From NCBI GenBank assembly GCA_000091205.1, contig AP006491.2: DNA of 64,000 bases, one strand, 5' to 3'. The DNA comes from Cyanidioschyzon merolae (taxonomy: Eukaryota). Each line of letters opens with the position of its first letter. The first letter of the stretch is position 1. The translations under genes were made by a program, and so were the position numbers. The notes beneath the pieces are model-generated. The model made no database searches, had not been told where the DNA came from, and worked only from the letters and a program-made list of their open reading frames with translations. Shown piece by piece: positions 4,161-64,000 of the stretch.

Positions 4161-5394
4161 ACGCGTGCAAAACGCTAATAAACCATGACAGTCGCCGCGG
4201 GTGGAAGTGCCTCAGCGTTCCAGCGACCCGCGAGGTGCCGAGTTCCTCGGAAGCGCTCGCCACGGCACCGGACACGTAGCGCCAGACGACGCGCGGCGTC
4301 AGCACCTCTAGGCGTTGCGTTTAGGGCCCTCGGCTCCATGCTGCACGATGCCCGTGCCGCACAGTGCGCTTCCTCGCCTGCTGCTGACGCCAGCGCTGGT
4401 GAAACAATGCCAGACATACCCACTCCGTGCCGTTACGTATTCGGTGCCCGCGGTGTTCACTGGTCAATGCATTCGATCTTCACAACAAAGCGGCTGCTGC
4501 GAATGCCAAAGGAACAGATCCAGCTTTGCACGCGACCCGTTCCGCTTGGTTGCCAATACGAGGAAACCGCTCAGGTCCGTGGCGCTGCACACTGCTAACG
4601 ATGCCTGGATGGTATGGAATGCGGGACGGCAATGCAGCCGCTTCGATAGAGTTTACATGCCCGATGCAGCTCGTACCTCAATTGATTCAGGCGCGGGGAA
4701 CCCAGGCTAGATGAATCCCTAATTGACTTCGGAATGCATCTCATTGTTCTCCAGGGGAGTTCCACGGTGTTCGTAGGAGAACGTATCGCCTCGCTGGCCG
4801 CACAGGAGCAATCCGCGGCGACTCCCCGTGCAGCTGATCCATGCTCGCCATCCAGCCTGCAATGATGGCATAAAGTGTTAGGTACCACGTTGTTTTTGGT
4901 GCGGTCTCGGTGCGAGATCGCGTTTACTCCTCTGAAACCCGGCTGTCTAGCCAACTGCGAACATTCGGCATGATCGTTCACAGGTGCTACCAAAATTCCG
5001 GCATGCGCGACGCATGTACTGTATAGGCAGCTGGCTTTCGGAAATCATCTTGCGTTTTGGAGCAGTAAGCATCGCACTCGGCCTCGGATAGAGACTGGGA
5101 ACGCTGGCATCGATACCGAATGAACAAATGGCAGCGTGCAGTCGAACACGACTGCTTCATACAAAACAGTCGATCGAACCGCACACAGAGCACACACAGA
5201 CGAGTCAAGAACGTATCGACTAGACCAGGGCGCCGGTTCCCATACACGCTGCAAGCACAGCATCGCACCCGCGGCAGACAGCTATTACAGGGTATCTCGC
5301 GCCAATGACCAGGCCACAGACCGGTGTGCAGCGCGGAATTCAGCAAGCCTGGCGGCCTTCTCATGCGTGTGGACAAAGTCGGCGGGGTTTGGAT

Positions 5395-6177
5395 TCACGC
5401 TTGGCGCCCAGCAAGCTGATCCGTGCTCTCCATCTGGACCCAAGCCTTGAAGCGTCGCCGCATCTGTGCCACAAACGCTCCGAAATCATTCGTTCGGTTC
5501 AGCGTTTCCACCATTTGTGCGAGACGTACATTCGCTGCTCCGGCCGTTGGCTTCATTACATCAATGTCAGGAACGCAGTCCTCGACTCGGAATAAATCTG
5601 CGTCCTCATCTACATACACTGTAAAAGCAAACTCGCGATCCGGCGCCCGCGAATCGATGTGTCGGAAAATCACGCGAACCTTGCCGTCAACACGCCCGGC
5701 CTCGGTCGCCGAGGCAGCGCCAACTCTCTGAAACCGCAGCCCCAGTCTATCTCGGTACCAAACAAGCGCCTTCTGGAGATGCAGCAGACGCGTGCGCCGT
5801 GCCTCTTCGCACGCATTCAAGAGCGCTCGACGGCGCTCAAACTCCTGCCGGCGCTCAGCGATCTCCTGCTCGAGTTCCTGCTGCCTCACCGGTAGCGCAG
5901 CGGCCCGTGCCTCGAGTTGCGCTATTCCACGCTCGAGGGCGTCCAGCTCCTCACGCTCTGCCTCTAAACGCTCCTGCAATCGTGCCGCTGCTGCCTCGAA
6001 TTGCGTGCGCCGCTGTACCAATGTCTCCGTTTCCCGTGACACCCGCGCCGTTGTCTCCTGCCAGGTCCGCTGTACCTCTTCCAGATTGCTCAAACGTCCT
6101 CTTGCCCAAACCTCAAACTGTGTCCTAGCGTGATGAAGGTTTTCATCGAGATGTCTCAAGTCTACAGTATCCATCAA
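5395..6177 (-). CDS. SPC25: Kinetochore protein Spc25 (Ndc80 complex subunit), with N-terminal coiled coil and C-terminal RWD domain
   Basis: The C-terminal block is YRDRLGLRFQRV...KVRVIFRHIDSRAPDREFAFTVYVDEDADLFRVEDCVPDIDVM...LNRTNDFGAFVAQMRRRFKAWV. Human SPC25 has LGLEIRKI...[37 protein letters not shown]...VRKTNNFSAFLANVRKAFT. The N-terminal half is Glu/Arg/Leu-rich coiled coil. Confidence 0.7.
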   Translation of the reverse strand: MMDTVDLRHLDENLHHARTQFEVWARGRLSNLEEVQRTWQETTARVSRETETLVQRRTQFEAAAARLQERLEAEREELDALERGIAQLEARAAALPVRQQELEQEIAERRQEFERRRALLNACEEARRTRLLHLQKALVWYRDRLGLRFQRVGAASATEAGRVDGKVRVIFRHIDSRAPDREFAFTVYVDEDADLFRVEDCVPDIDVMKPTAGAANVRLAQMVETLNRTNDFGAFVAQMRRRFKAWVQMESTDQLAGRQA

Positions 6178-6286
6178 CGGACTAAAAGCGTCGATGGCAG
6201 AAGGAGTCGCTCAGACCTGCGGCGCAGTGCTGCTTTGCGCGCCTTTCTGGTGGCGCTGATTTCAAATCGCCACGATGTGCAACGCT

Positions 6287-6287
<1 letters not shown>

Positions 6288-6322
<35 letters not shown>
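6288..6322. repeat. (ACGC)n tetranucleotide microsatellite, about 8 units
   Basis: cgcacgcacgcacgcacgcacgcacgc is visible directly. Confidence 0.9.
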
Positions 6323-6344
6323 GTTTCGCGCTTCTCAACGCCCT

Positions 6345-8036
6345 ATGCCTGGGTGTCAACCTGACGAGGATGCGCAACACATAGTGGCGAAACCTTCCAG
6401 TCCCCGCTTGCTGATGCCTTCTAGACCCCTGAGTGACATCCAGGAAAGCTGGGAGGATCGAGAGAACGCCCCACCGGCTGCAACGTGGACGCCTTTGGCG
6501 AAACATCTGCCGGCAGACGGCACGGCTGCTCCCAGTGACGGTGAGGTGGCCTCCAACACGCTTGTTCGGAAAACCGCGCGCAAGGGTTCGGAATATTCCG
6601 GTGTATCAGGTTGCATCTTCACGACGGCAGGAAGCACCACTAGCGCCGGAGTTTCCGAGTGCGGCGAGTCCACGGAGCGCACGGCTCTCGCTGAAGCGCG
6701 CCCAGTAGCTAGCCTGTCGACGAACGCTGGCGCCGTTCCGGGAACCCCAGCATCGCCTGTTGCCGCGGAGGCGTCGAAACACTCTGAAGTTAACGTTCGA
6801 CCAGACAAAGGAGACGCAGCGGCTTTCGACCAGCTGCTTCAAACAGAAGCACGAACAGCATCGCCGGCCGGCGCGGCGCAGGCGCAGGCGCGGCAACCTA
6901 CACCGCCAGCGAGGCATACAGCGGAAACGAGCGCTACTTCTCAGCTCGCATGGCGAGAGAACGATACGTCGAGAACGAGCCTAATCCGGCCCGACTGGGC
7001 TGCTCCTGATGAGTCGACACTTGACGGACAGCAGTCAGCACGCGATAGTCTACGCGGTGCGCGCACACCAGCGACACGTCGGCTCTCCGGTGGTGTGCGG
7101 ACCACCAAGAGTCGCATGCAGCATCGTCGCTCCAGTACTGCAGCGAATACGCAACTACCAGTACCGAGAATGGTTACCAACGAAGACAAGAGCGAGGCAG
7201 GGGTGCCAGCATCCAGGCAAGGCTCTGGCGCAGAGCCTCGCGCATTGCAGCAGGACACGTCGCCAGCGCAATTGCCTTCATCCGAACGAGCTGCTGGGAC
7301 ACAGGGCGCCCAGCGTTTACCAGCCACTACATTTCCGTGGAATGCAAATGGCACAATACAAGCAGCAGAGGCCACGCGTGCCTTCGAGGAATACCGTGCT
7401 AGCGTCGCAGTCCAGTTAGATGCCGCCGAACGGCTGGTCGAACGTTACAAGAGCGAAAACGAACAGCTGCGACAGCAGCTTGACCATGCAGAAGTGGCGA
7501 AACTGCGCCAACGGGTCGACGATCTCGAGCGCACCCGAACAGACCAACAGCTGCGATATCTCGAACTGCAGAAGCATGCGATTCAGCTAGAAGCTGACCT
7601 CGCGCGAGAACGTCTCGCACTCGAGCGCGAGCGATCACAACTCGCCCAGCTCGAAAACGACGCCGCACCAGCAGCAGCGCTTTTCCAACTATGTTCTGGG
7701 GCGACCCAGGTGAAACCCATACGCGTTCGCTACGAGTCCACGGGTACAACGCCAGAGACCGAAGCCAAACTCCCCGGGAACACACCGTCCACAGCGAATC
7801 GTCCACAGGCCATTTGGCTTAACGGCTACCAAATACTCCTAGAAAATAGCGCCTTGCAACGAAGAGCTCTCTTTCAACTCGTTCTCGATGACTCGGGCGA
7901 TGTCGAATACACGCCCCTGGAACTGATGCTCGGCGACGCCGCCACCGATGCACCAGACTTTCTCCAGGAGACCATCTACTTTCCGCGAAACGAGTTGCCC
8001 CTGTTCTGGCTGCGACTCGTTGGCGTTCTCTTTTAA
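6345..8036 (+). CDS. Hypothetical protein with Ala/Ser/Thr/Pro-rich disordered N-terminus and C-terminal coiled coil
   Basis: 563-aa ORF. The C-terminal segment AVQLDAAERLVERYKSENEQLRQQLDHAEVAKLRQRVDDLERTRTDQQLRYLELQKHAIQLEADLARERLALERERSQLAQLEND is a heptad-rich coiled coil. No family recognised. Its 3' end overlaps the first Met of the next long ORF, so the true boundaries are uncertain. Confidence 0.4.
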   Translation: MPGCQPDEDAQHIVAKPSSPRLLMPSRPLSDIQESWEDRENAPPAATWTPLAKHLPADGTAAPSDGEVASNTLVRKTARKGSEYSGVSGCIFTTAGSTTSAGVSECGESTERTALAEARPVASLSTNAGAVPGTPASPVAAEASKHSEVNVRPDKGDAAAFDQLLQTEARTASPAGAAQAQARQPTPPARHTAETSATSQLAWRENDTSRTSLIRPDWAAPDESTLDGQQSARDSLRGARTPATRRLSGGVRTTKSRMQHRRSSTAANTQLPVPRMVTNEDKSEAGVPASRQGSGAEPRALQQDTSPAQLPSSERAAGTQGAQRLPATTFPWNANGTIQAAEATRAFEEYRASVAVQLDAAERLVERYKSENEQLRQQLDHAEVAKLRQRVDDLERTRTDQQLRYLELQKHAIQLEADLARERLALERERSQLAQLENDAAPAAALFQLCSGATQVKPIRVRYESTGTTPETEAKLPGNTPSTANRPQAIWLNGYQILLENSALQRRALFQLVLDDSGDVEYTPLELMLGDAATDAPDFLQETIYFPRNELPLFWLRLVGVLF

Positions 8037-8142
8037 ACCACGGTTACTCCACTCGTGCCGCTTGACACGTAACGACGACACCTTCTGGACACGACCCCAG
8101 AGACGCAGCTTCCGTCAATGCTCCAACCCGGCAACCTCGACG

Positions 8143-11100
8143 ATGTCGACGTTCAAACAAACCTGCGATGCGTTCTGCTCGGGCGCGACGCGTCCTCAGA
8201 CAAGCGCACAGGGACCACGTCTTGTTCTGGATCAACCTGGTAGCGTCGCGGCTTTCGGTCAGTGTTTGGACGCCATCAGCGTCGCTGGCTTGGCACTGGT
8301 CGTTACGGTGCAACAGGACGGAAGCGTTGCGCTCTGGGTTACTAGTGGACTGCGCTTTTATCGTCAGTTTTTTTGGAGTGCGCGACGTGAACGCATCATC
8401 GATGCGGATTGTCATTCCGTAACGTCTGCTGACGATTTTGATGCTGTGCTCAGTGCACGCTTTCGGAGACCGGACGGGGCGCTGGTTCTAGGGACGCACG
8501 CTGGACACGTGGTTTGTATTGAACACGGGTCGGGGGGCGGGTTGGCGAACCTGTATCGCCGCTGGCAGCTTGTAGGTCGCCTCGACGCTCCGGTGTGGCT
8601 CGTGGGCAGTGTCGCACCAACGCCGACGACACCCGTCGACACAACTGCTGCCAACAATGGCGACGGGGATCAGGGCAGCACGGGTGCCGCTTTGTCGACG
8701 GGAGCACCCGGCGAATCGCATACCCGCCCGTTACCCGCGTCTGTGTCGGTATCTGAAGCGAGGGCGTGCTCGCCTTTGGCAGCGATCAGCACGGGTGTGG
8801 TCGTGGCGTGGACGGAGCACGCGCTCTGGTGGTATGTGCCAGCGCTCCGCCGATGGCATCGTTGCCCACATCCAGAGGATTTCGAAGCGCAGCAGCAGCA
8901 GCAGCGCATACGCGATGCTCCTGCGATCTATCTGGGGGAGGTTAGTGCCTCAGGGTGCTTTTTTGCGTGGACGTTGCGGCATAGTGACGGGTGCTGGATC
9001 GGCGCATGTCCACAGTGGCATGCAGCTACGTTCCACGCTGCATCGGATACCGATACCAACGACAGTGCTGATGACAATGTTGATCAGCGTATGCACAGTG
9101 AAGCTGTCTTCATTCATACCTCAGATCCGCTGTGCAGTCTTGCTTGGAAACCGGCACCGATTCGCGGTGGCGAGGCGCTGCTCGTGGGCGATAGATGCGG
9201 CCGCCTGAGGCTCTTCTCTGCAGCGACAACGGACTGGCGCTCGATAGCCACGGTGAGCGGCATGCCGCTCGCGACGCAGGCGGTCGATACAGCTGCCTGT
9301 TTCGTGCACCAGTACGGCAGCGGAGGCATCGCTGAAGACGAGAATGACGCTGCTCTGGTGGTTCTATCCGAGTGGCATCTCGGGGGCGCTGCAGCCTCCG
9401 GCGATACACGTCCACATGCAAAGCGAGACGCTCAGTCCGCACAGGGCATCATCGTGCATCCATATCGAGCGTCGATTGCGGTGCACTATATTGGGCAATG
9501 GATTCCGGGGATGCCCACGCTCTGGTGCGTCTCGCACCTGAACGATGAACCGGTACCCCGGGTGGTACCGTTCCATCGGGCCTCAGATGGGGCGTCAACG
9601 CCCGTGGCGCCTCCCGAGACGGACGCCAACGTTGCAAGGAACGGCCCGCCGACGCCTGTTCTCGAGTCAGTTGAGGGCGCCGCTGCATCAACAGCAGCAT
9701 GCCTTGCGGTACGTATCGAGGCAGCAGCAGAGTCGTGGCGAGCGCCGGTCAGCGCCGCGTGTGCTCCGGCAAAGGAGCTGCGGAGCCAGCAGCCGCCGGC
9801 GCAACCTGCACAACTGAACTGGATCCTGCAGAGAGGTCAGGTTGTGGAACGTTGGTACCAAAACGGTCGCCCAGGCGATGCCCTGGAGTTCTGGTCGCAC
9901 GTTGTCAGACTGGGCAACGGCGATGTGGGGTCCATCGGCGCGCTCTCCTACGGCTCTCGAGCGCGCACGCTGGTAGCACTTACGAGCACGCAACGACTTG
10001 TGTGCTGGCCGCTACCAGGCTGGCCGGCGCTGCGCTCCGGATACGGTCCCCGAACGCTGCCGACCCTGACCCAGACTAGAGTTTCGCGACCAGGGTGGGT
10101 TCACTGCGCCAACCAGCTTACCGCTTGTGTGCGTTGCGCTCAACGCGTTGAGTTGGCCTTGTTCACGATGACGGAGGCAGGTCTGCTCCAGCTGTACGGC
10201 TGGCTGTCGCCGCCCGAAGTAGACGCTCGTGAAACGCAAGCTCGGATACCGGACGAGGCCACCGCTGCGCCGCTGATGTGTGTGCTATCCGCGTCGACAC
10301 CGCCGGGGGTCCAGGTCGACGACTGTGCCGTTTGGAGTCGTCATCAGCCGCAGATGCTCGATACGCTCGAGGCGGACCAGCCGCAAGAAACAGGCTTGCT
10401 CTGCTGGAGCGCCCTCGACATGGTCTGGTACGTCTCCAGGATCATTGGTGTTCGGGACGCGAATGCAACTTCCGTGGCTCATTCGGTGCCCGCCAGCATC
10501 GATTCGGAAACCGGTGATGCTGCCATTGCGCCATTGGTGCCTTGCGGAAGCGCAACGCCCGTGCAAGCCGCTCCCGCATGCAACCAGCACCAGCCCGAAG
10601 AGGGGCAGGCGACTGCCCGCGCCAGCTCACCGGCCCGCAACTGCCGACATCTTGCCCTGCATTGCTTCGACTTGTCGCCCTGGGTACGATTATGTGTTTC
10701 GGATCCGCCGCCTTGCGCCTTTGCGGTTCGTACAGACAAGGTATTCGTATGGCGGGTGGACGGAGTCCTCGCTGTGTACCGACTCGACACCTCCAGGTCG
10801 GTACTGGAACGGATTACGGCATCGCGCCTGGTGGCGGAAACGCTTCATGAACGCGCACACTGGCACCAAAGTCGCCTGGTGGTTTCCGCTGACGCCCAAG
10901 AGGTCGCCGTCTGGGATGCAGCGTCACGTCGACTGCACCTGTGTTCATTCGACGGTGCGGATATCTACGCATTAACTACTGTGGATGTGTCGGATACGCG
11001 GCCTGATGCGGATATCTCGTTCGCACGCTACCGTAGTTGCGCTTATCTCACGGTGGACCGGTGGCTCTATTATCGCCGGGGTTGCCGCTGGATCTCGTGC

Positions 11101-13638
11101 GGTCAGTTGCCTGGCGTCGTTCACCACACGATTTCGCTGCCGGAAGGTGTCGTCGTCGCTTCGAGGAACGACCAGCTCTTTGTGTTCGATGCGAGCATGG
11201 CAATGTCAAGAGCGGATCAGGAAACCGAGGCCCTCAGCGCTGACGCGCGTTACGAGATGGCGTTGATGGCGGGCATCGGGGCTGGACTCACACCGGATGC
11301 AGCTATGCGAATCGCGCAAAGCATCGACTCGGCGGCACTGGCACCTGGCGAGGACACCGGCACTGCCGCTGATGCGACAGCGCATCCCGAGAGCGTCGCT
11401 CTCGAGCAGCTGGGTACAGCGCGTAGCGCTTCGCCGGACCCGCACGCCCACTGCGCCGTCGATCGCGAGCACGACGGAATGCCGCCAACTGTAGCACCGC
11501 TGATGCGGAGCGTAGATACAGGCGCGGATGCCGGCGCTTTCGCTCGTGCTTGCCACGAGAGCTTTGCTGCTCACGCCAGAGCCTGCGCTGCTCTGGACGC
11601 TAACGGCTCCGTTTTCGTCATCCTCGCGGATGCATATCGGCGTCTTAATCTGGAAATTCCGCCGCAGGTCCTGCAGTTCGCGTTACACGCAACTTGCGAA
11701 GAAGCGATATTGCAGGAGCTTGGACTTTTGAGCGGGTCCGTTAAATGGCACATGGCGCGCCAATACGGCTGTGGCTATTGGGTGCGCTCGGAACTGCTCA
11801 TCCACCGTCTCGTCGAGGTCATTGCTCGCGCAACCTACAACGCATCACACAAGCCGCGGGATGCAGTGCTATGGTACGTGCTGCTGCGACGACCGCGCGT
11901 GCTGAGCACGCTCTTCCGTGCAATCGGCGAGCCGCGAATCGCGGGCTTCTTCGCGCAAGACTTTGGGGATGCCGCCGTTCGAGAGCGGGCCAATAAGAAC
12001 GCATTTGCAAGACTCGCCGTCCATGACTACGAGCTGTCAGCGGCGTTCTTCATCCTGGGTGCTGACCCATCCGCAGCCATGCAAGTCATCCGGGATCGCC
12101 TCGGCGACGAGCAACTGGCGCTATTGCTGTCGCGACTTGAACCGACGCTCCAAGCAGAGCAGGCGCTGGGGAATGCCCAGGAGCACCAGCAGGCACCGGA
12201 ATGGCAACTGCTACGCGCTTGCGTCATTGGCAAATACGACCATGCTGTAGCGATCGTAGAGCGTATGGACTGGTTGCGGAACGAATCGCAGGCCAGCGCC
12301 TGGCCCGCCATGGCTGGTGCTCTGCTCCAGACGAGAGCACTGCAGGCAGCACCCTCTGTCCAGCGTAGGCCGGATTTCATCGGAGCGCATCAGCGACTCC
12401 GGTTTCGAGTCGGCCATCTTTTGGCACAGACCGACCTTCTGCCCCTGGCTCAGCGACTGGTGCATCCGGCGTGGCGTATCCAGATGCAGAGCCACGCCCT
12501 CGGCCAAGCGCTGCTGCGCAACTCCACCGCGTGCACTCTCGCGCGCCCCGCACTGCGTGCCTGGGTGCAGCAAACGATAGCCGTGTCCGAGGAGCCGCTT
12601 CCCGTGCACGCCCTCGAGAGCGTCCTCGTGGCCACGGGGCAGTGGCTCCTGCACCAGGACGCGCCCCGTCTGCTCGGCTCGCTGAACGCCTGGATCGTCA
12701 TTCGCCAACTGCTGGAGTCGCACCGCTCTCGCGTTCACCGCATCTCGTTAGATGAAGGTTTCCTGGACAGCATACTCTCTTATCTAGTCGCCACTATCCA
12801 CCGAATCGCTTTGGGTGTCAGCGATCCCGACGAAGACATCAGCGAACCTCAACAACAACAACACGTCTGGTTGATGGACGCTGCAGTGCTCACAGAACGT
12901 CTCCAAGCCGCATCACCTCCAGTGGTACCCGAGGCAACGCGAGTTGCCTTGTCACAAGCAGCACAAGTTGCGCGTTTCCTCTGGATATGGCGGCATGCGC
13001 GCTGGACACCTATCAACGCGATGCACGCATCGTGGTGCGACGCGGCGACACGCATGCAGCGGACAGCACATGTTCCCGCCAAAGCGATTGAAACGGACAC
13101 GGCGATCGAGCCCCGACCCCCATCAGTGCCGTGCCTGCCGCGTCGTCGACAGCGCGCGCACTGCCTGTCCATGCTGCATGCGCTGTGCCTCGTCGACGCC
13201 CTGGATCGCTGTGCGGTGTGCCTGCAGACGACGACGACGGCGGCGGCGGCGCTGCGCTGGGCGACGGCGCTGCGTACCGCCATCCACCTCCTGATCGAGC
13301 GCATCGCTGGAGCGCCTGGGCAAGGCGATGCGCTCGCCGGACGCCATCAGCAGCAGTTGCCCGATGGCGATGAGGAGGCAGTGGAGCAGCTGTGGCGACG
13401 CTGCTGGCTTGCTGGTGGCTGGGTGCGTACGCAACTCGCGCGAGCGCTGCTCGCGGATCACGCGGCCGAAGCGGTGCATCCAGCGTCATGTGCAGCGGCG
13501 GCGGATGGCGTCTCCGGCACGACGTATCCGCTTGAGCGGACGCTCTATCCGGTGCGATTTCCGGTGCGGGAGATTCGACGGTACGTCGCTCGCAAATCAA
13601 GACGCGCCACAGCGTCCTGCTGCGCGAAGCGACCCTGA
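8143..13638 (+). CDS. RAV1: Rav1/DMXL (rabconnectin-3 alpha)-like protein, N-terminal and central part, with N-terminal WD40-like region and Rav1p_C domain
   Basis: ORF 7948..13638 (1896 aa); the likely start is Met66 at 8143 (MSTFKQT). The central block YGCGYWVRSELLIHRLVEVIARATYNASHKPRDAVLWYVLLRRPRVLSTLFRAIGEPRIAGFFAQDFGDAAVRERANKNAFARLAVHDYELSAAFFILGADPSAAMQVIRDRLGDEQLALLLSRLEP matches the Rav1p_C signature (KNAYALLsKhRyEhAAAFFLLaG...QLAlviARLyE). It ends in TGA at 13636..13638, exactly where the next WD40 ORF begins. Confidence 0.65.
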   Translation: MSTFKQTCDAFCSGATRPQTSAQGPRLVLDQPGSVAAFGQCLDAISVAGLALVVTVQQDGSVALWVTSGLRFYRQFFWSARRERIIDADCHSVTSADDFDAVLSARFRRPDGALVLGTHAGHVVCIEHGSGGGLANLYRRWQLVGRLDAPVWLVGSVAPTPTTPVDTTAANNGDGDQGSTGAALSTGAPGESHTRPLPASVSVSEARACSPLAAISTGVVVAWTEHALWWYVPALRRWHRCPHPEDFEAQQQQQRIRDAPAIYLGEVSASGCFFAWTLRHSDGCWIGACPQWHAATFHAASDTDTNDSADDNVDQRMHSEAVFIHTSDPLCSLAWKPAPIRGGEALLVGDRCGRLRLFSAATTDWRSIATVSGMPLATQAVDTAACFVHQYGSGGIAEDENDAALVVLSEWHLGGAAASGDTRPHAKRDAQSAQGIIVHPYRASIAVHYIGQWIPGMPTLWCVSHLNDEPVPRVVPFHRASDGASTPVAPPETDANVARNGPPTPVLESVEGAAASTAACLAVRIEAAAESWRAPVSAACAPAKELRSQQPPAQPAQLNWILQRGQVVERWYQNGRPGDALEFWSHVVRLGNGDVGSIGALSYGSRARTLVALTSTQRLVCWPLPGWPALRSGYGPRTLPTLTQTRVSRPGWVHCANQLTACVRCAQRVELALFTMTEAGLLQLYGWLSPPEVDARETQARIPDEATAAPLMCVLSASTPPGVQVDDCAVWSRHQPQMLDTLEADQPQETGLLCWSALDMVWYVSRIIGVRDANATSVAHSVPASIDSETGDAAIAPLVPCGSATPVQAAPACNQHQPEEGQATARASSPARNCRHLALHCFDLSPWVRLCVSDPPPCAFAVRTDKVFVWRVDGVLAVYRLDTSRSVLERITASRLVAETLHERAHWHQSRLVVSADAQEVAVWDAASRRLHLCSFDGADIYALTTVDVSDTRPDADISFARYRSCAYLTVDRWLYYRRGCRWISCGQLPGVVHHTISLPEGVVVASRNDQLFVFDASMAMSRADQETEALSADARYEMALMAGIGAGLTPDAAMRIAQSIDSAALAPGEDTGTAADATAHPESVALEQLGTARSASPDPHAHCAVDREHDGMPPTVAPLMRSVDTGADAGAFARACHESFAAHARACAALDANGSVFVILADAYRRLNLEIPPQVLQFALHATCEEAILQELGLLSGSVKWHMARQYGCGYWVRSELLIHRLVEVIARATYNASHKPRDAVLWYVLLRRPRVLSTLFRAIGEPRIAGFFAQDFGDAAVRERANKNAFARLAVHDYELSAAFFILGADPSAAMQVIRDRLGDEQLALLLSRLEPTLQAEQALGNAQEHQQAPEWQLLRACVIGKYDHAVAIVERMDWLRNESQASAWPAMAGALLQTRALQAAPSVQRRPDFIGAHQRLRFRVGHLLAQTDLLPLAQRLVHPAWRIQMQSHALGQALLRNSTACTLARPALRAWVQQTIAVSEEPLPVHALESVLVATGQWLLHQDAPRLLGSLNAWIVIRQLLESHRSRVHRISLDEGFLDSILSYLVATIHRIALGVSDPDEDISEPQQQQHVWLMDAAVLTERLQAASPPVVPEATRVALSQAAQVARFLWIWRHARWTPINAMHASWCDAATRMQRTAHVPAKAIETDTAIEPRPPSVPCLPRRRQRAHCLSMLHALCLVDALDRCAVCLQTTTTAAAALRWATALRTAIHLLIERIAGAPGQGDALAGRHQQQLPDGDEEAVEQLWRRCWLAGGWVRTQLARALLADHAAEAVHPASCAAAADGVSGTTYPLERTLYPVRFPVREIRRYVARKSRRATASCCAKRP
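13581..13612 (+). other. Candidate 32-nt GT-AG mini-intron, or the site of a frameshift, joining the two Rav1/DMXL ORFs
   Basis: The sequence gtacgtcgctcgcaaatcaagacgcgccacag starts with a canonical GTACGT donor and ends in CAG. Its length is 2 mod 3. Removing it changes ...VREIRR (frame 1) into VLLREATLMTALAVAPHEP... (frame 0, the WD40 ORF) with no stop. This is unverified and could be coincidence. Confidence 0.25.
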
Positions 13639-14987
13639 TGACGGCGCTGGCTGTTGCGCCGCATGAGCCGACGCGGCTTGTCGTCGCCACACTGAAGCCG
13701 CATCGAGGTCTGTATGAGCTCAGCTGGGAGCCCGCTGAGGGTGTCTCCACGGACGGCGAATCAGAGCGTCTGCCTCGATCGTCACCGAGCTCGGCATCGG
13801 CCGTCGTGCGTGACCTCCGCGCCGGCAACTGGCACGGGCGTGTACCCGACGCGCGGCATGCGGAGGCTGCGGCAGCGTCGCGCGGGCTCCGCTGGCGCTC
13901 CGAGGTGCTCGCGTCGAGTCTGGCGGCGCATCCCTTCTCAAATCGGTACATTTCCGGAGATACTGAGGGTGACTTGCTTTTTTGGACTTTTGGAGAGCCG
14001 TTCGCTCTAGCCCAGCTCACATGGGCGCACGCACGCGGCCAAGTGGTGCAGCGTGTTCGCTTCGCACCTTTTGGAGATGCCGTGGTTGCTGCCTACGCCT
14101 CAGGTCTGGTGGCGCTCTGGCGCGTGCCCGATAAGCTTGCCATCTGCACGCCAAGTGAGCCGGAACAGGTCTGGCGACCTTTCGGCGATGTCTGCGTACA
14201 TGATGTCTGCTTTGTCGATCAGGAGAATGTGATTGCGACTTTTGGTCGCGCCTATGACGGCAGCAATGCGACTGGCGGCGACATAGGTCCCAGTCGAATG
14301 GACACCATTCGAGTCTTCGATCTGCGGGCGGGGGCACTGAATCCACAGCAACAACAACAACAACAACGTTACCATCATCAGCCTGTGCTGTGTTTCCGGG
14401 CCCACACGCTCCCTGGTGGAGATTCGAGCGTGCGCGGCTCTTCGAGTTGCGAATCCCTCTGCGGACTCGTACTGGGCGATGGGACGCGGCTCCTGAGTGC
14501 GTCCTCCGAAGGCCACCTAGCCGTGTGTGATATGCGAACGTCTCGCTGTGCAGCCCAGTTCAGGGCACACTCGGACGGCAGCGCCATTCGTACGCTGGTC
14601 ATGGAAGAGCCGCGGGGACGGGCGCTGATCACCGGCACCGACAGCGGCCAGGTGCGGCTCTGGGACGCGCGTTCCCTGCGTCTGCTCGAGGAACTTGGTA
14701 CGGTGCATCGGCCAACGCGTCATTTCCGCGCTCGGGCACGTGCAAGTCAACATGCCTCCAGTCTCCGTCTGAGTGGCGGCACTGCACTTTTCGGGCTCTA
14801 TGGCGTGGAGTGTGCGCTGCTCACGGATTATAGTCTGATCACTGGCGGCGGTGATGGGTACCTGTACGCACACGGGCCCGGCTGGGGCGGCACTGCGAGC
14901 CCAGCAGTCAGTGATCACGTCAGCACTTTTGCAGACGATGTGGATACGCAACTGCGACGCGTGGAGAGCGGTCTTGCGCTCTTCTGA
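13638..14987 (+). CDS. RAV1: C-terminal WD40-repeat part of the Rav1/DMXL-like gene (separate ORF because of a frame change)
   Basis: 449-aa ORF with WD40-like units (ISGDTEGDLLFWTF, VRLWDARSLRLLEEL, HLAVCDMRTS) and a poly-Gln tract. DMXL/Rav1 proteins carry C-terminal WD40 repeats. The frame-0 reading is open for about 100 nt upstream of its ATG, overlapping the end of the previous ORF. Confidence 0.6.
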   Translation: MTALAVAPHEPTRLVVATLKPHRGLYELSWEPAEGVSTDGESERLPRSSPSSASAVVRDLRAGNWHGRVPDARHAEAAAASRGLRWRSEVLASSLAAHPFSNRYISGDTEGDLLFWTFGEPFALAQLTWAHARGQVVQRVRFAPFGDAVVAAYASGLVALWRVPDKLAICTPSEPEQVWRPFGDVCVHDVCFVDQENVIATFGRAYDGSNATGGDIGPSRMDTIRVFDLRAGALNPQQQQQQQRYHHQPVLCFRAHTLPGGDSSVRGSSSCESLCGLVLGDGTRLLSASSEGHLAVCDMRTSRCAAQFRAHSDGSAIRTLVMEEPRGRALITGTDSGQVRLWDARSLRLLEELGTVHRPTRHFRARARASQHASSLRLSGGTALFGLYGVECALLTDYSLITGGGDGYLYAHGPGWGGTASPAVSDHVSTFADDVDTQLRRVESGLALF

Positions 14988-17023
14988 GTGTTCGCGCCTC
15001 GCCATGCTTTCGATCAAGTGACGTGTCTGCACTTGAAGAGAAAAAAGGATCCGCAGAGTCTAGAAACAACACCGTTCGGTGTCACGGGGTAGCTCAGTAT
15101 ACGGTACAGGGTTTGCCGTTCCCTCACGAATGTCTTGCTCCCTGATTCGCACAGGCACTGTGTCATCGTTGAAGGAGTTGCCAAGCAGCGAAACCCGCCG
15201 TTGACGTGTCGAAACCTTGCCGTCTCTATCGACGCCGGAGTAATCGCGAGCCACCCGGTACGACACATGGTCAAGTGGGCTACGTTGCTGCGCTCGTCTC
15301 TGACGCATTAGCTGTCTGACGAAGCGCGATGTCTGCTGCGTCATTACACCTTGTTCGTGGCGTTTTGTATTCCGGATCTTTGGCCAAACTGCATGCTTGC
15401 ATATCGCATACCGTACTGTGGTTCTGAACGGCGTCCAGTGCACTAGGGTCACAATTTCACGTTCCTAACGATGCACCTGTATGGGCTCTTTGGGTTCGCA
15501 TTGCAGCTGAGTCTGATCCGATGCCTTCAAATGACACCGAGGCGTGAGCACACGATCCATGCTGGTCGTCCTCTCACTGCGAAGCGCTCCGCGAGGCATT
15601 CTTGCAGCCGGCGACACGCACATGGGGGCGGAAACACGCACAAGCCGCTGCACTAGTGCTCGAATGTTACTTTTGGAGGCGTTCGCACGTACAAGCACTC
15701 CATCCCAGCTGCTGTATAGGCTCGGAGCGATATTCATGAAGCGGGAAATCGTTCGTGCAGAGCAATAGCCGACGTTGAACCTACCTGGTTTCATCCTCTG
15801 AGGGTCAATGGCTCATCTGTCATCCCTTTGCAGGTTCATTGCACCCTCGAAAGCGCCGTGGCTAGCAGCTGAGGCCACTGTCGTCGTTGCTGGCAGACGC
15901 GCGCCGCCTTCAGCGCAGCAGTACTGGCGGTAAACGTTCGATTTCGTCGCCATGATGACTGGAGGTTGCTCGCCTCGCGTGCCGCATTGCACGCTTATCG
16001 TTGCGCAGTGCACCCGTTTCCACTGCGAAGCAGAGATACGACCTCTCCTGGAACTGGGTTACATGCACTTCGTGCTTATCGCATAGACTCCTTCAGCCTC
16101 GGAGCTATCATCACACTGGTGCTGCATCTGGGGCACCTGCACGCAGTCCTGTACCGTGCAGCGCTCATTCGTAACACATCAGCCGGTGTCGACACGCTCT
16201 ATGCACGTGCTGCCCTTGTTACCGGAGGTATTTGCGGACACGTGCCTAGTTGATACCTGGATGCCCGCTTTTTTATGTTGCCGTTTTGGGGTGTACCAGG
16301 GGCCATACGCGCGCACGACGTGCCGCGCAGTCAGCAACACCGCGTCCCATCTCGAATCGGCGAGTCAGAGGCACTCCGCATCCCTTGCATGTGGTGATGA
16401 AATATCGCGAGGAAAACGAGACAGCTGTGAACACGTTTTCCATTGGTGCACATGCCCGAACGCGAGCCCCGGCGAATCTGTGTGCTCCCTGCCGGACTCG
16501 CGGCATTAATGCGTCTCTACAACGCGCTGATGGAGCGTGCTCTGTTCAGCATCGCTGCGAGCATCCCCTGGAGATTTGGTACTCGGGGCTTCACCGGATG
16601 ACGCTTCGAGCTCATGAAACGAACACTGGACTGGGGAGTCGGGGTTCAGAGGCGTTTATGACGGCAGTGAAGAAGGTTCCCCGGATGCCGGCAACATTCG
16701 CGCTGTCGGGGGATGCCCGTTCAACGCATGGATCGTGCGTCAACTACAACATATTCTGTTCAAATGTATTCACTTATGTACATGATCGTTTGATCCTGAT
16801 CACCGTCACCTGTGCTCCCTGCTCTCTGCATGATCACAACACATCCTGTCCTATTATATCCATTTATAGAACGAATTGTTTGTTCCTGTATCACGGGTAC
16901 CAAGCAGATCTGCTCAATGCCGTCTGCACCGGATATCTGCACTTGAACCTCGATGCCTGCCCGTGGTCGCTTCTTGCGATTGCTCTAACTTGTGATATCG
17001 ACACGCTCGGGTTCTTCAGGGCC

Positions 17024-18385
17024 ATGAAGCTGCGCTACGACTACCAGTACGGGTTCGGGAACCATTTTGCAACAGAGTGTGTACCCGGAGCGCTACCAGT
17101 GGGTCAGAATAATCCCCAAAAGTGTGCATATGGGCTCTATGCTGAGCAACTATCTGGGACGGCGTTCACGGCGCCGCGCAGCGCGAACCAACGAACCTGG
17201 ATGTACCGCGTTCGTCCCTCTGTAGACCACGGGGCATACCAGCGGGTATCTTTCGCAGAGCGAGCGCCAGGTCTGGGCTTTCGAGGACAGATCGCGACAC
17301 CAGAGCGGCTGCGCTGGCAACCGCGCGACGACGCGGCCCCAGACAGGACTGCCGACGCCGCCGACGCCGACACCGACACAGACTTTTTGCGGGGCCTGTT
17401 CCGTATTGGAGAAAACGGGCTTCCCGAGGACCGAAACGGTCTCTCCATATATTCGTATTGGTGTAATACGTCCATGGACGGGGAGGCATTCTACAATGCT
17501 GACGGGGACCTGCTCATCCTCCCGCAACAAGGCGAACTCGTGCTCCAAACTGAACTCGGCATGCTGGAAGTGCCCGCTGGGCACGTCGCTGTAGTGCCGC
17601 GTGGCATCCGCTTTGCTGCACGTGTCGTTCCCATGAGTGACACTACGTCGACTAGCCGCGGCTTTGTTCTTGAGGTCTACGACAGGCACTTTGAGTTGCC
17701 CGACCTTGGTCCCATTGGCGCGAACGGATGCGCTGCACCCCGCGACTTCCGCTACCCGCTCGCCTATGTGGACCGCGATACCCTCCAGAGCTCTTGGCGA
17801 ATATGGGCCAAGTTCCAAAACCAGATCTTTATGTATGAGACGGATCACTCCGTCTTCGACGTTGTCGCCTGGCACGGCAACTACGCGCCATTTGCCTACG
17901 ATCTGGACCGCTTTTGTCCGGTAAATGCGGTTCGTTTCGACCACATGGACCCATCGATTTTCACGGTGCTCACTTGTCGCAGCGATGAACCTGGAGTGGC
18001 GCTAGCTGACTTTGTTATATTTCCACCGCGCTGGAACGTTCAGGAGCACACGTTTCGACCTCCGTATTTTCATCGAAACTGCATGACGGAGTTCATGATG
18101 AACCTAGCGGGAGAATACGATGCGAAGAGTGCGGCGGGTTTCCCACCGGGTGCCTGCTCGCTCCACTCGATAATGAGTGCGCATGGGCCGGATCTCGAGT
18201 CTTTCGCCCGGGCTGCCACGGAACAACTCCGACCGAAACGCCTACCGGACTCGACGCTGGCGGCTATGTTCGAAACCAGTCGTATGTTGCGCATTACCAA
18301 AGAGGCGCTAGAGCTGCTCCCTCTTGATCGAACGTATACGAGTTGCTGGCGCGATTTTCCGCCAGCAACGATACCTTCTTCATAG
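17024..18385 (+). CDS. HGD: Homogentisate 1,2-dioxygenase (tyrosine/phenylalanine catabolism)
   Basis: 453-aa reading from MKLRYDYQYGFGNHFATECVPGALPVGQNNPQKCAYGLYAEQLSGTAFTAPR... through the cupin core (...HRNCMTEFMMNLAGEYDAKSAAGFPPGACSLHSIMSAHGPD). These are classic HGD N-terminal motifs and the length is typical for HGD. The six-frame ORF extends upstream to 16250 without a stop, but that upstream part is AT-rich and non-homologous. Confidence 0.9.
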   Translation: MKLRYDYQYGFGNHFATECVPGALPVGQNNPQKCAYGLYAEQLSGTAFTAPRSANQRTWMYRVRPSVDHGAYQRVSFAERAPGLGFRGQIATPERLRWQPRDDAAPDRTADAADADTDTDFLRGLFRIGENGLPEDRNGLSIYSYWCNTSMDGEAFYNADGDLLILPQQGELVLQTELGMLEVPAGHVAVVPRGIRFAARVVPMSDTTSTSRGFVLEVYDRHFELPDLGPIGANGCAAPRDFRYPLAYVDRDTLQSSWRIWAKFQNQIFMYETDHSVFDVVAWHGNYAPFAYDLDRFCPVNAVRFDHMDPSIFTVLTCRSDEPGVALADFVIFPPRWNVQEHTFRPPYFHRNCMTEFMMNLAGEYDAKSAAGFPPGACSLHSIMSAHGPDLESFARAATEQLRPKRLPDSTLAAMFETSRMLRITKEALELLPLDRTYTSCWRDFPPATIPSS

Positions 18386-34049: not shown

Positions 34050-36419
34050 TCAACGATTCTCGGCAGGTCCTTGACGCCGCATGTGGCGCTCGTAGTAGAA
34101 TTGCGCAAAGGTAGGCAGCACTCGAGAGGAGACCACGGATGAAAGCGAACCTCCAGGTTCCGGATGCGTACACGACGCACCCGATGCCTGGCGGAAGACC
34201 AGCGTTAGCTCATTTAGGAGCGTTTCGTAGCGGTAGCGAACACGAATAGATGGAACATTGGACTTGTGGATATCGTTCCCCTGGTCATTGGTGAGAAACC
34301 AGCGCGGTCCGAGCCAGTGCGCCTTCACACAGGGCTCGAAACCGCTCTGTAGCGCAGAGTTTCGCGCCAGTTCACAGAGATCCGAACTGCTCAGTTTCCA
34401 TATCTGAGCGGCTACCGAGTACTCTTCCATGAGCGGCTCGCGAGAGAAATGGAACATAAGTGGATCATCGGTGCTGAGGCTCACATTCAGCCCGCGTGCA
34501 ATAAACACTGGTACCGGTGACTTGGTGTAATCGACGAATAGCAGGTTATTGCCCAGCGGAGAGACAGCGAGACCCACTTGGCACAGGTAGTAGAGGTACT
34601 GCAGCACGGGTGCTTTTTTCAAGTTAATCCCGTGATTAATACCGTGCGCGAGGAGAAACGTCACTGCCAGGTGATCGATTTCGCCGGCTTCACCAGCATG
34701 TGGGCGGAATCGAAAGGTATGCAGGCCTCGATGCTCGCGAAACCTGTTCAAAACCCATAAATTAGCGTAGATGTAGTAGGTGAAGTATGCATAGGGCATC
34801 GGTGCTGAGGTACGCCACGCTAGCGGCGGTGGCAAGGTCAACAAGTCGATGCGTGGCTGCGGTACACTCTCGTCGTCAACGGTGTCGAAGCCTACAATCT
34901 GTTGCAGAACTGTGTGCAGCTCCGGATGCGTTGATGGATCTTGCGTGACCTCAAATAGCGGGAAGAAAATATTGTTCAACATTTCCTGAAAGGATTCCAG
35001 CAACCCTGCTTCGTGGTAGGCGCCGAACAAACGCGGAATCTGGATCAACCATCGGGCGTGATCCGAGTAGATTCGATGCTTGGTGAACCAGCGAGCAAGA
35101 CGATCCCACTCGCATCGTTTTTTGCCGTATATCGAGATTCGGGGCTCGATATGGGAGTACTTGCTCTCTACAAGATCATCGAGGACCTCGCGGGTGATTT
35201 CCGCCAGAAATCGGCCTTCGATAAAGTTGTCCGTTTTCAGAAACACTTCCCGAAGACGAGATTCTCCCAGCGGGGAATACTTGTTATTGAAGCGGTCAAA
35301 GCGCTGCACGGTACGCTTATCCGCGTGCACGTCGAGCGTGTCCACCGACAGCTCATACGCCGTGATGCCGAGGGAGTCGAACACCCCGGCCAGCGTCAGA
35401 ACGCGGCCATCGCGCTCAATCACTGGGGTGTTCGGCTCGGTCTTGAGTTTCTTCTTAATAAATCGGAGCAGGTGCTTCTGGTTCATACAGGAGCTGTGAT
35501 GAATATGCGTGTCAACCTTGCGGACATTATAAAAGTCTCGATGCGGCACTGTCATCTGCTCTAGCCGCTCTGCTTCATCGTTGAGTAGCAGATGCATTTG
35601 AAAGCGCAGAGAGAGTAGTTGCAGACGCCTGTAGCAGAACGAGCGGGAGTCGGGATCGTTCATGATCCCGATCAGCGTGTTCAGATCGTGCACGAAAAGC
35701 GCATAGGAGCCAGGAACAACGAACTTGCACGGTTCGCGGCTTGTCTCGGTTGCCGGTCTTGTGACCTCCATGATGCCATCACGAACTTCGAACGCGTAAT
35801 CGCCCTTCGCCAGGGCTGGCCCTCGAAAAGGATCATACGGTGGCGGGACGTGGATACTCAGGTCACAGTCGCGGTACGGAGGTGCCGGGTTCGCATACTC
35901 TGGGACTTCAGGTAGGTAGAGGTATTTCTCGCGGAGGGCGATAGCGTTTCGGAGCAGTGCACATACCCTGCGCTCGTCGGCGTTTAACTCGACCTCGTTC
36001 GTGATGAGTACTCGCTGAAAACCTCGCTCTGTAACCGCAGATCGGAGTGAGCGGAAGGCTTGCCCAAGTTCTCGCCGGAGTTCAAGCGTCTGTAACGCAG
36101 TCAGGGTCGCCTCGTCTACCGAGGCCGTGTTGTGCACGAGTTGGGTTCCGTCGCTACGGTCACCTGAAGTGGAGGCTTCTTGCGCTCGCAGAGGATCGGT
36201 AACAGGAACCAGCAGCGCGTCCCGTGCCCTCTCGTCGGAGCGCTCACCAGCTGCCACCGACGATTGAACTAGACGACGCCAGTGAGGAGACAGGGCGCGC
36301 TGTGCAAGAACCGGTTCGGCATCCTCCTGTTCAAGGTCATGAATCCAAACGAGCTTGCCACTATCTCTACCAAATGGTTCCATGAGCGTGCACGTGCTCC
36401 AGTTCCCCGACACCGTCAC
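34050..36419 (-). CDS. AMPD: AMP deaminase
   Basis: 789 aa. It has the metal-binding motif VDTHIHHSSCMNQKHLLRFIK, SLSTDDPLMFHFSREPLMEEYSVAAQIWKLSSSDLCELARNS, and a long central block colinear with AMPD/Amd1. Start is either Met1 (36419) or Met13 (36383); Met1 overlaps the tail of the Fanzor ORF. Confidence 0.9.
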   Translation of the reverse strand: MTVSGNWSTCTLMEPFGRDSGKLVWIHDLEQEDAEPVLAQRALSPHWRRLVQSSVAAGERSDERARDALLVPVTDPLRAQEASTSGDRSDGTQLVHNTASVDEATLTALQTLELRRELGQAFRSLRSAVTERGFQRVLITNEVELNADERRVCALLRNAIALREKYLYLPEVPEYANPAPPYRDCDLSIHVPPPYDPFRGPALAKGDYAFEVRDGIMEVTRPATETSREPCKFVVPGSYALFVHDLNTLIGIMNDPDSRSFCYRRLQLLSLRFQMHLLLNDEAERLEQMTVPHRDFYNVRKVDTHIHHSSCMNQKHLLRFIKKKLKTEPNTPVIERDGRVLTLAGVFDSLGITAYELSVDTLDVHADKRTVQRFDRFNNKYSPLGESRLREVFLKTDNFIEGRFLAEITREVLDDLVESKYSHIEPRISIYGKKRCEWDRLARWFTKHRIYSDHARWLIQIPRLFGAYHEAGLLESFQEMLNNIFFPLFEVTQDPSTHPELHTVLQQIVGFDTVDDESVPQPRIDLLTLPPPLAWRTSAPMPYAYFTYYIYANLWVLNRFREHRGLHTFRFRPHAGEAGEIDHLAVTFLLAHGINHGINLKKAPVLQYLYYLCQVGLAVSPLGNNLLFVDYTKSPVPVFIARGLNVSLSTDDPLMFHFSREPLMEEYSVAAQIWKLSSSDLCELARNSALQSGFEPCVKAHWLGPRWFLTNDQGNDIHKSNVPSIRVRYRYETLLNELTLVFRQASGASCTHPEPGGSLSSVVSSRVLPTFAQFYYERHMRRQGPAENR

Positions 36420-59444: not shown

Positions 59445-59580
59445 CTAGGTAGCATACGCGCACACCGATCATGATCAGAGACCGACCACGTACACCGCTG
59501 TGGAACTGCGCTCTGGTTACCCACTTGACACGATTGGGATCCCATTGACTGCTGCGAGCCCGAGGTTGCAACCCAGAGGA

Positions 59581-60450: not shown

Positions 60451-60626
60451 GCATCACAAGATCCAGAATCCCGGATAGGCATCAACGCGGAGCGACGCAC
60501 TCTGCAAAATCAAGAGGAGGCTCGCTTCTGGGTACACATCAGCTGCGTAGACGCTCGGAAGCTGCTAGGATTGGATAGTATCCCTGCCACGGTTCCGCTT
60601 ATGCCCTCATCTAGGTCAAGAATAGA

Positions 60627-63987: not shown

Positions 63988-64000
63988 GAGACGAGACGGG

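What the first reader, a model, noticed from the sequence alone, without database searches (positions are those of the whole stretch)
13536..13640. Rav1/DMXL-like gene is split exactly at a TGA/ATG junction: either a 32-nt GT-AG mini-intron or a frameshift
The 1896-aa ORF (Rav1p_C-containing) stops at TGA 13636..13638 and a 449-aa WD40 ORF starts at ATG 13638..13640 in another frame. DMXL/Rav1 proteins do carry C-terminal WD40 repeats, so the two ORFs almost certainly form one gene. The downstream frame is already open from 13536. Removing gtacgt...ccacag (13581..13612, 32 nt, canonical donor, AG acceptor, length 2 mod 3) fuses the frames cleanly into ...PVREIRR-VLLREATLMTALAV.... In an otherwise intron-free neighbourhood this would be a rare ultra-short intron. 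Otherwise the gene carries a real or assembly frameshift.
Basis: seen in the sequence. Interest (0 to 1): 0.6.

Follow-up and report, generated by a model that had tools for sequence, protein, structure and literature searches.

The report
One-base frameshift splits Rav1/DMXL gene

Summary
ORF 7948..13638 (Rav1p_C) and ORF 13638..14987 (WD40) abut as TGATG in different frames. They are exactly C. merolae 10D proteins BAM79994.1 and BAM79995.1 (CMI105C).

"One gene" is supported. ORF2 matches the extreme C-terminus of proteins that were found only through ORF1. Nine distinct ~99%-identical environmental proteins and two orthologue lineages read straight through the junction.

The favoured 32-nt intron is not supported:
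- In relatives, 13581..13612 is coding sequence (VRRSQIKTRHS, conserved in orthologues).
- It lacks the near-invariant ACUAACC branch site of C. merolae introns.
- Frame-restoring GT..AG pairs occur by chance in 95% of shuffles.

The break is one base. The window has TTT at 13558..13560, and two environmental contigs have TTTT. In L003 nothing else differs within ±100 nt. Adding one T gives a 2281-aa protein that aligns with the orthologues, apart from one single-residue gap.

I could not tell whether the missing T is an error in the deposited sequence or a real lesion in strain 10D. No independent 10D assembly was reachable. A published resequencing reports 81 indels shared by two 10D descendants against the reference, including a similar one-base case (CMO228C/Tic236). 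Interest is low; the practical outcome is an annotation fix.

The parts
8143..13560 (+). 5' part of the single Rav1/DMXL-like coding sequence, in frame 1. The real start is ATG 8143 (MSTFKQ...).
   Evidence: The environmental gene call P0001 and orthologues P0002/P0003 all start at the Met that corresponds to 8143. P0001 follows this frame up to ...YPVRF, where ttt is 13558..13560.
7948..8142 (+). 65-codon N-terminal extension in the deposited 1896-aa model. It is probably not translated, and it overlaps the 3' end of the upstream gene CMI102C (6345..8036).
   Evidence: ORF list. The homologues start at the 8143 Met.
11584..12138 (+). Rav1p_C domain (PF12234), ORF1 residues 1213-1397.
   Evidence: E 1.2e-26. 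The same stretch matches yeast Rav1 chain 9cop_x at E 1.8e-11.
13549..13568 (+). Direct repeat CCGGTGCG-A-TTT-CCGGTGCG flanking the T run. It makes the out-of-frame continuation (PVRF-PVRE) look like protein.
   Evidence: Read directly from the sequence.
13558..13560 (+). Frameshift site: a TTT run where environmental contigs have TTTT. One base is missing relative to all relatives, which shifts frame 1 to frame 0.
   Evidence: DNA alignments with L003 and L005. The proteins read ...PVRFSGAGDS....
13561..13638 (+). Out-of-frame tail of ORF1 (PVREIRRYVARKSRRATASCCAKRP, then TGA). It is not part of the ancestral protein.
   Evidence: Codon-usage scores for frame 1 fall from about 13565 onward and are negative from about 13573.
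13581..13612 (+). The proposed 32-nt intron. In the correct frame it encodes part of ...STVRRSQIKTRHSV..., so it is coding sequence and not an intron.
   Evidence: No CTAAC, CTRAY or TNAY motif inside it. The GT..AG pairing is at chance level.
13561..14987 (+). 3' part of the same coding sequence, in frame 0. With the missing T restored, the first codon is t+cc = Ser. The stop is at 14985..14987.
   Evidence: The +T reconstruction gives a 2281-aa ORF with no internal stop that matches P0001 at 2265 of 2285 aligned columns.
13839..14897 (+). C-terminal WD40 propeller region (ORF2 residues ~68-420).
   Evidence: ORF2 aligns to the last 0-13% of 30 of 147 distant Rav1p_C-containing proteins, with E-values down to 2.5e-43.

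Best explanation
The window comes from the Cyanidioschyzon merolae 10D reference genome. The two ORFs are the N-terminal 4/5 and the C-terminal WD40 propeller of one Rav1/DMXL (rabconnectin-3-alpha-like) gene, which by family knowledge is a regulator of V-ATPase assembly.

Shown:
- The reading frame breaks because the T run at 13558..13560 has three T's, where two sequenced environmental contigs have four and all relatives' proteins require the extra base.
- After the break, ORF1 runs on for 25 out-of-frame codons to a fortuitous TGA.
- The automatic annotation then called the first in-frame ATG, which is the conserved Met of ...EATLMTA..., as a second 'gene'.
- There is no intron.

Inferred:
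- The missing T is either a base-calling error in the deposited sequence (about 50%) or a very recent real 1-nt deletion in the sequenced 10D stock (about 43%).
- If it is real, the strain makes a protein of about 1831 aa that lacks the C-terminal propeller, and the 449-aa ORF is not independently expressed.

The confidence of 0.92 is for 'one gene, one-base frameshift, no intron'. It does not cover the origin of the missing base.
For: Identity of the locus: ORF1 equals BAM79994.1 and ORF2 equals BAM79995.1 (CYME_CMI105C) exactly.

Relatives are unsplit:
- An exhaustive HMMER search with the ORF1 tail found P0001 (2285 aa, 99% identical) and P0002 (2226 aa, 43%). Both extend about 460-475 aa beyond the ORF1 match.
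- In their genomic contigs each is one uninterrupted ORF.
- P0001 reads ...TLYPVRF|SGAGDSTVRRSQIKTRHSVLLREATLMTALAV..., which is the ORF1 frame followed by the ORF2 frame. That needs one extra base.
- DNA alignment shows CGATTTTCCGG in L003 and L005 against CGATTTCCGG in the window. For L003 there is no other difference within ±100 nt, and across the whole 6.8-kb gene the only other indel is an in-frame 12-nt CAG repeat.
- Nine distinct environmental proteins read RFSGAGDS. Only the 10D entry reads RFPVREIRR.
- Orthologues keep 19 residues between PVRF and VLL, with conserved RS and RH residues. The +T model aligns with a single 1-residue gap, whereas the intron model leaves an 11-residue gap.

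One gene by architecture: ORF2 is homologous to the extreme C-termini of 30 of the 147 distant proteins retrieved through ORF1 alone.

No decay downstream: ORF2 has 0 stops in 449 codons, against 11 and 14 in the other two frames. The differences from L003 there are 4 synonymous and 1 non-synonymous.

Precedent for reference indels: 81 indels are shared by two resequenced 10D descendants against the published genome, including a missing G inside CMO228C/Tic236 (PMC7291098).
Against: - No independent sequence of strain 10D itself could be examined, so the T4 state is inferred from relatives about 0.85% divergent, not from 10D.
- The reference was Sanger-finished ('100% complete'), which makes errors uncommon. 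A T3/T4 miscall in such a short run is not a typical Sanger error.
- An independent 8-nt frameshifting deletion about 100 nt upstream in another environmental contig (L005) shows that disrupted alleles of this gene may exist in nature. That favours a real lesion over a record error.
Confidence: 0.92

Rival explanations
1. Real lesion (a sub-branch of the best explanation). The sequenced 10D stock truly carries the 1-nt deletion. The model strain therefore makes a Rav1/DMXL protein truncated before its C-terminal WD40 propeller, and CMI105C is an untranslated remnant.
For: - Indels between 10D and the environmental strain are common outside coding sequence: 4 gaps in 12.8 kb.
- Laboratory lineages of 10D gained 10-37 private indels each (PMC7291098).
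- An independent 8-nt deletion splits the same gene about 100 nt upstream in JGI sample 3300053654.
- Yeast Rav1 (1357 aa in 9cop_x) is far shorter than the reconstructed 2281-aa protein and was matched only over the Rav1p_C stretch. From background knowledge, not tested here, it has no C-terminal WD40 propeller. A truncated protein could therefore keep core function.
Against: - The propeller is conserved in every relative, and at the C-termini of 30 of 147 distant family members.
- The downstream frame shows no decay at all, so any lesion must be very recent.
- A documented precedent shows that the same reference contains one-base errors that break large genes.
Confidence: 0.43
2. A 32-nt GT-AG mini-intron (13581..13612) is spliced out to fuse the two frames.
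For: GT and AG ends, a GTACGT donor one mismatch from the C. merolae consensus GUAAGU, and a length of 2 mod 3 that restores the frame with no stop.
Against: - The segment is translated, in frame, in nine ~99%-identical relatives and is conserved in two orthologue lineages. The genomic ORFs of the two relatives examined at DNA level (P0001, P0002) are uninterrupted.
- Splicing would leave an 11-residue gap and seven out-of-frame residues.
- There is no ACUAACC, CTAAC or even CTRAY branch site, although the branch site is described as virtually invariant in this lineage (bioRxiv 10.64898/2026.05.17.725761).
- Frame-restoring GT..AG pairs occur in 95% of shuffles.
- A one-base difference explains the break completely.
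- RNA-seq surveys that allowed introns down to 20 bp report only 39 introns in C. merolae. I could not see the list itself.
Confidence: 0.02
3. Two genuinely separate genes, as currently annotated: a Rav1-like protein and an independent 449-aa WD40 protein.
For: This is the deposited annotation. In that record both ORFs start with ATG and end with a stop codon.
Against: - The ORFs overlap by one base, leaving no room for a promoter or a 3' end.
- All relatives encode one protein.
- ORF2's Met is an internal conserved residue.
- About 30 residues upstream of that Met in the same frame are identical in the ~99%-identical relatives, and partly conserved in the two orthologue lineages.
Confidence: 0.02
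4. Programmed -1 ribosomal frameshifting or transcriptional slippage at the T run joins the two frames during expression.
For: The required shift is -1, and it lies at a short T run.
Against: - No X XXY YYZ slippery heptamer exists in frame anywhere in 13536..13636. The codons are cgA TTT CCG, read directly.
- From general knowledge, a run of three T's is far too short for polymerase slippage.
- Relatives need no recoding because their ORF is continuous, so no conserved recoding signal exists.
Confidence: 0.01

Closest known systems
DMXL1/DMXL2 (rabconnectin-3 alpha) / yeast Rav1, the large subunit of the RAVE complex that promotes V-ATPase V1-Vo assembly
   Same: - Rav1p_C domain above Pfam's threshold.
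- Matches the solved yeast Rav1 chain 9cop_x.
- Very large size (2281 aa once reconstructed).
- A C-terminal WD40 propeller, as found at the ends of the 2000-4300-aa family members retrieved.
- The Cyanidiococcus homologues are named 'Dmx-like 1' by their depositors.
   Different: - Only 30-45% identity over about 160 residues to non-cyanidialean members.
- The N-terminal propellers are seen only as faint Pfam hits.
- Function in this alga is untested.
- In the 10D record the gene is broken in two.
The CMO228C/Tic236 one-base discrepancy in the C. merolae 10D reference (Sato et al. 2020, PMC7291098)
   Same: Same genome record. A single-base deletion lies inside a protein-coding gene. It is one of 81 indels shared by two resequenced 10D descendants against the published sequence.
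   Different: That case was confirmed by resequencing. The T-run site here has not been checked against 10D reads, and neither CMI104C nor CMI105C turned up in any searchable paper.
Spliceosomal introns of Cyanidioschyzon merolae (39 introns in 38 genes; GUAAGU / ACUAACC / AG)
   Same: GT..AG termini and a donor hexamer one mismatch from consensus.
   Different: - No branch site.
- The segment is coding in relatives, and removing it does not give the orthologous protein.
Fragmented 'Dmx-like 1' models in the first Cyanidiococcus yangmingshanensis assembly (KAF6002151-3: 1009 + 429 + 639 aa)
   Same: The orthologous gene is split into adjacent pieces in one assembly, while another assembly of the species gives a single 2246-aa protein, KAK4532295.1.
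   Different: Different species and different break points. The cause of those splits was not examined.

Membership tests
Rav1/DMXL (rabconnectin-3 alpha) family | Rav1p_C domain (PF12234) above the curated threshold | tested here: met
   93.8 bits against a cut-off of 27, E 1.2e-26, ORF1 residues 1213-1397; yeast Rav1 9cop_x at E 1.8e-11 over the same stretch.
Rav1/DMXL (rabconnectin-3 alpha) family | C-terminal WD40 propeller on the same polypeptide (DMXL-type architecture) | tested here: met
   ORF2 aligns to the C-terminal ends of 30 of 147 Rav1p_C proteins. Relatives are single proteins of 2226-2289 aa. In the window itself the two parts are out of frame by one base.
Rav1/DMXL (rabconnectin-3 alpha) family | N-terminal WD40 propellers | tested here: inconclusive
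   Pfam at E<=0.01 found nothing N-terminal in ORF1. Only 'faint' precomputed propeller hits are listed for P0001 and P0002. No structure prediction was run.
Rav1/DMXL (rabconnectin-3 alpha) family | Binds V-ATPase V1 and promotes its reassembly | not testable with these tools
   Needs biochemistry or genetics.
C. merolae spliceosomal intron | GU at the 5' end and AG at the 3' end | tested here: met
   GTACGT...CACAG at 13581..13612. Chance gives such pairs in 95% of shuffles.
C. merolae spliceosomal intron | Near-invariant branch site ACUAACC | tested here: not met
   No ACTAACC, CTAAC, CTRAY or TNAY in the 32 nt.
C. merolae spliceosomal intron | Removal yields the conserved protein, and the sequence is non-coding in relatives | tested here: not met
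   The segment encodes VRRSQIKTRHS in relatives. Removing it gives an 11-residue gap against the orthologues.
C. merolae spliceosomal intron | Spliced junction reads in RNA-seq | not testable with these tools
   No read data are available here. The published list of 39 introns is in supplements that are not held.
Programmed -1 ribosomal frameshift site | In-frame slippery heptamer X XXY YYZ, conserved among relatives | tested here: not met
   Reading the frame-1 codons of 13537..13638 directly finds no such heptamer. Relatives have a continuous ORF.
Reference-sequence indel error of the 10D genome record | Single-base indel relative to close relatives that breaks an otherwise intact, conserved ORF | tested here: met
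Reference-sequence indel error of the 10D genome record | Independent reads of the same strain show the other state | not testable with these tools
   Control look-ups show that the collections hold no independent 10D assembly. The exact 10D proteins CMI102C, the Dis3-like protein and the rad16-like protein occur only in the NCBI record. So the absence of the corrected 2281-aa protein is uninformative.

The most novel reading that the evidence does not exclude
The missing T is real in the sequenced 10D stock. If so, the standard laboratory strain of this model alga lacks the C-terminal propeller of its only Rav1/DMXL homologue. An independent 8-nt frameshifting deletion about 100 nt upstream in another sample (L005) would then suggest that loss of this propeller is recurrently tolerated, or even favoured, in some populations or cultures. 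That would make 10D a natural domain-deletion mutant for studying V-ATPase regulation in an acidophile.
Probability: 0.4. Interest if true: 0.25.

Novelty: not a real feature. Interest (0 to 1): 0.1.

Why it matters
Mostly this is housekeeping. Two database entries (BAM79994.1 and BAM79995.1/CMI105C) of a widely used model genome should be merged into one Rav1/DMXL gene of about 2281 aa, or flagged as a disrupted gene. The annotated start at 7948 should probably move to 8143.

C. merolae is a reference organism for minimal splicing, with 39 known introns. A 32-nt intron without a branch site would have been remarkable, so it is worth stating clearly that the evidence is against it.

If the lesion is real, the standard lab strain carries a truncated V-ATPase assembly factor. 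Anyone studying vacuolar acidification in this alga should know that.

Tried and rejected
- A word-indexed homology search with a 654-aa junction-spanning fusion found nothing. Candidates were probably swamped by low-complexity and WD40 words.
- The fused protein could not be submitted to the exhaustive search because it is not an exact window sequence, so the ORF1 tail was used instead.
- Exact-product look-ups of ORF1, ORF2, CMI102C and the Dis3-like gene found no contigs.
- A metagenome DNA scan with a T3/T4-tolerant pattern returned only the contig already in hand.
- An exact look-up of the reconstructed 2281-aa protein was negative. Controls showed the test is uninformative, because no independent 10D assembly is in the collection.
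- No searchable paper mentions CMI104C or CMI105C. The supplements of the polyadenylation paper, the intronome preprint and the resequencing note held nothing usable.
- A literature search for other reports of reference errors was unproductive.
- Rfam and the tRNA scan of the window were empty.
- I first guessed a trypanosomatid from the composition. I dropped that when genes turned out to lie on both strands and the organism was identified.
- Codon-usage scoring localised the frame switch only roughly, to about 13565-13610, and could not separate the models.
Full report
**What is in the sequence**

ORF 7948..13638 (+, 1896 aa) ends with TGA 13636..13638. ORF 13638..14987 (+, 449 aa) begins with ATG 13638..13640 in a different frame. 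ORF1 carries a Rav1p_C domain (PF12234, 93.8 bits, E 1.2e-26) and matches the solved yeast Rav1 chain 9cop_x. ORF2 gives only generic WD40-propeller matches. The downstream frame is open from 13536. The segment 13581..13612 is GTACGT...CACAG, 32 nt, and deleting it joins the frames.

**Where the window comes from**

An exhaustive HMMER search with the last 1200 residues of ORF1 returned P0001 (2285 aa, 99% identical) and P0002 (2226 aa, 43% identical). A cluster look-up showed that ORF1 and ORF2 are, residue for residue, the Cyanidioschyzon merolae strain 10D proteins BAM79994.1 ('hypothetical protein, conserved') and BAM79995.1 (CYME_CMI105C), on an 810,151-bp record. The window is thus the published reference genome of this red alga, and the two ORFs are annotated there as two genes.

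**One gene or two**

Everything points to one gene.

- The same protein cluster holds seven full-length environmental versions (2283-2289 aa).
- A second lineage has 2226-aa proteins.
- Cyanidiococcus yangmingshanensis has a 2246-aa protein, KAK4532295.1.
- P0001 and P0002 are single uninterrupted ORFs in their genomic contigs.
- ORF2, searched against the 147 distant proteins that had been retrieved only through ORF1, hits 30 of them. The hit is always at the extreme C-terminus, with E-values down to 2.5e-43.

The architecture is the DMXL/rabconnectin-3-alpha type: Rav1p_C in the middle and a WD40 propeller at the end.

**What breaks the frame**

P0001 reads ...TLYPVRF|SGAGDSTVRRSQIKTRHSVLLREATLMTALAV... 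This is the ORF1 frame up to ttt 13558..13560 and the ORF2 frame from there on, which is possible only with one additional base.

The DNA confirms it. Contig L003 (JGI 3300005861) has CGATTTTCCGG where the window has CGATTTCCGG, and nothing else differs within ±100 nt. Across the whole 6.8-kb gene the only other indel is an in-frame 12-nt CAG-repeat difference. A second contig, L005, also has TTTT. Nine distinct environmental proteins read RFSGAGDS, and only the 10D entry reads RFPVREIRR. Inserting one T into the window gives a 2281-aa ORF with no internal stop.

The T run sits between two copies of CCGGTGCG (13549..13556 and 13561..13568). This is why the out-of-frame continuation 'PVRF-PVRE...' looks protein-like.

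The 'exact' TGA/ATG junction is incidental. CTG-ATG encodes the conserved Leu-Met of EATLMTA, and it contains TGA in the shifted frame.

**Why it is not an intron**

1. The 32 nt are translated in every relative. The stretch between PVRF and VLL is 18-19 residues in all three lineages, with conserved RS and RH positions. The +T model aligns with a single 1-residue gap, while the intron model leaves an 11-residue gap and keeps seven out-of-frame residues.
2. C. merolae introns have a strongly conserved GUAAGU donor and a virtually invariant ACUAACC branch site (bioRxiv 10.64898/2026.05.17.725761). The candidate has GTACGT and no CTAAC, CTRAY or even TNAY motif.
3. Frame-restoring GT..AG pairs are expected by chance. 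Four exist in the 103-nt overlap zone, shuffles give a mean of 5.0, and 95% of shuffles have at least one.
4. RNA-seq surveys that allowed introns as short as 20 bp report 39 introns in this genome. I could not read the gene list, so this point is only indirect.

Programmed -1 frameshifting is also unlikely. There is no slippery heptamer in frame, and the relatives need no recoding.

**Reference error or real lesion**

This could not be settled.

In favour of an error:
- Resequencing of two 10D descendants found 81 indels shared by both against the published sequence, including a missing G inside CMO228C/Tic236 (PMC7291098).
- The downstream 449 codons show no decay: 0 stops against 11 and 14 in the other frames, and 4 synonymous against 1 non-synonymous differences from L003.

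In favour of a real lesion:
- Laboratory lineages of 10D accumulate tens of indels.
- An independent 8-nt deletion (window 13459..13466) splits the same gene in a contig from JGI sample 3300053654.
- Yeast Rav1 is much shorter and, from background knowledge, has no C-terminal propeller. A truncated protein could therefore keep core function.

The collections hold no independent 10D assembly. Exact 10D versions of three neighbouring proteins occur only in the NCBI record, so the absence of the corrected protein says nothing. I put the odds at roughly 50% error and 43% real. Either way the event is very recent or artefactual.

**Verdict**

The 'one gene' inference and the fallback 'frameshift' are supported, and the headline mini-intron is not. 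This is an ordinary one-base frameshift in a reference record. It is of practical value for annotation and of little biological novelty, unless the lesion proves real in the laboratory strain.

Noticed in passing
window 7948..8142 (+), overlapping 6345..8036: The deposited 1896-aa model starts at ATG 7948 and overlaps the 3' end of the upstream gene CMI102C (Csm1_N-like, 563 aa) by 89 nt. All relatives start at the Met equivalent to 8143, so the first 65 annotated residues are probably spurious.
   Followed up: partly
L005 1..4178 (JGI 3300053654, contig Ga0556039_000015), equivalent to window 13459..13466: An environmental contig carries an independent 8-nt deletion (CACGCGGC) about 100 nt upstream of the 10D T-run site. 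It splits the same gene into 1795-aa and 507-aa calls while keeping TTTT. It could be a real disrupted allele or an assembly artefact.
   Followed up: partly
window ~8874..8888 (+): The in-frame CAG (polyglutamine) repeat differs in length between 10D (Q5) and the environmental strain L003 (Q9). The cluster's full-length members range from 2283 to 2289 aa. The cause of those other length differences was not examined.
   Followed up: no
window 36367..38515 (-), a lower-GC patch (0.51-0.53): ORF 36367..37263 (-) contains 'IDEFRTSYTHH' and 'NRDFNAALNIR', which from memory resemble the RuvC motifs of TnpB/Fanzor-type transposon nucleases. Three further ORFs lie upstream of it in other frames. Pfam, NCBIfam and PDB sequence searches gave no support, so this is a motif-level hunch only. 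The element sits directly upstream of the AMP deaminase gene (34050..36419, -).
   Followed up: partly
Cyanidiococcus yangmingshanensis proteins P0003, P0169, P0170 versus P0168: The orthologous gene is split into three adjacent 'Dmx-like 1' models (1009 + 429 + 639 aa) in one assembly of this species, but is a single 2246-aa protein in another. This very long gene is apparently prone to being fragmented in assemblies or annotations.
   Followed up: no
L001, L002, L003 versus window 5147..17984 and 58494..64000: Contigs from public metagenomes and sequencing runs (JGI 3300005861, ENA ERZ27247228, Logan SRR5248875) are 99.0-99.5% identical to 10D over many kilobases. Close wild relatives of the laboratory strain are therefore well sampled and could be used to screen the whole reference for similar one-base breaks.
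   Followed up: no
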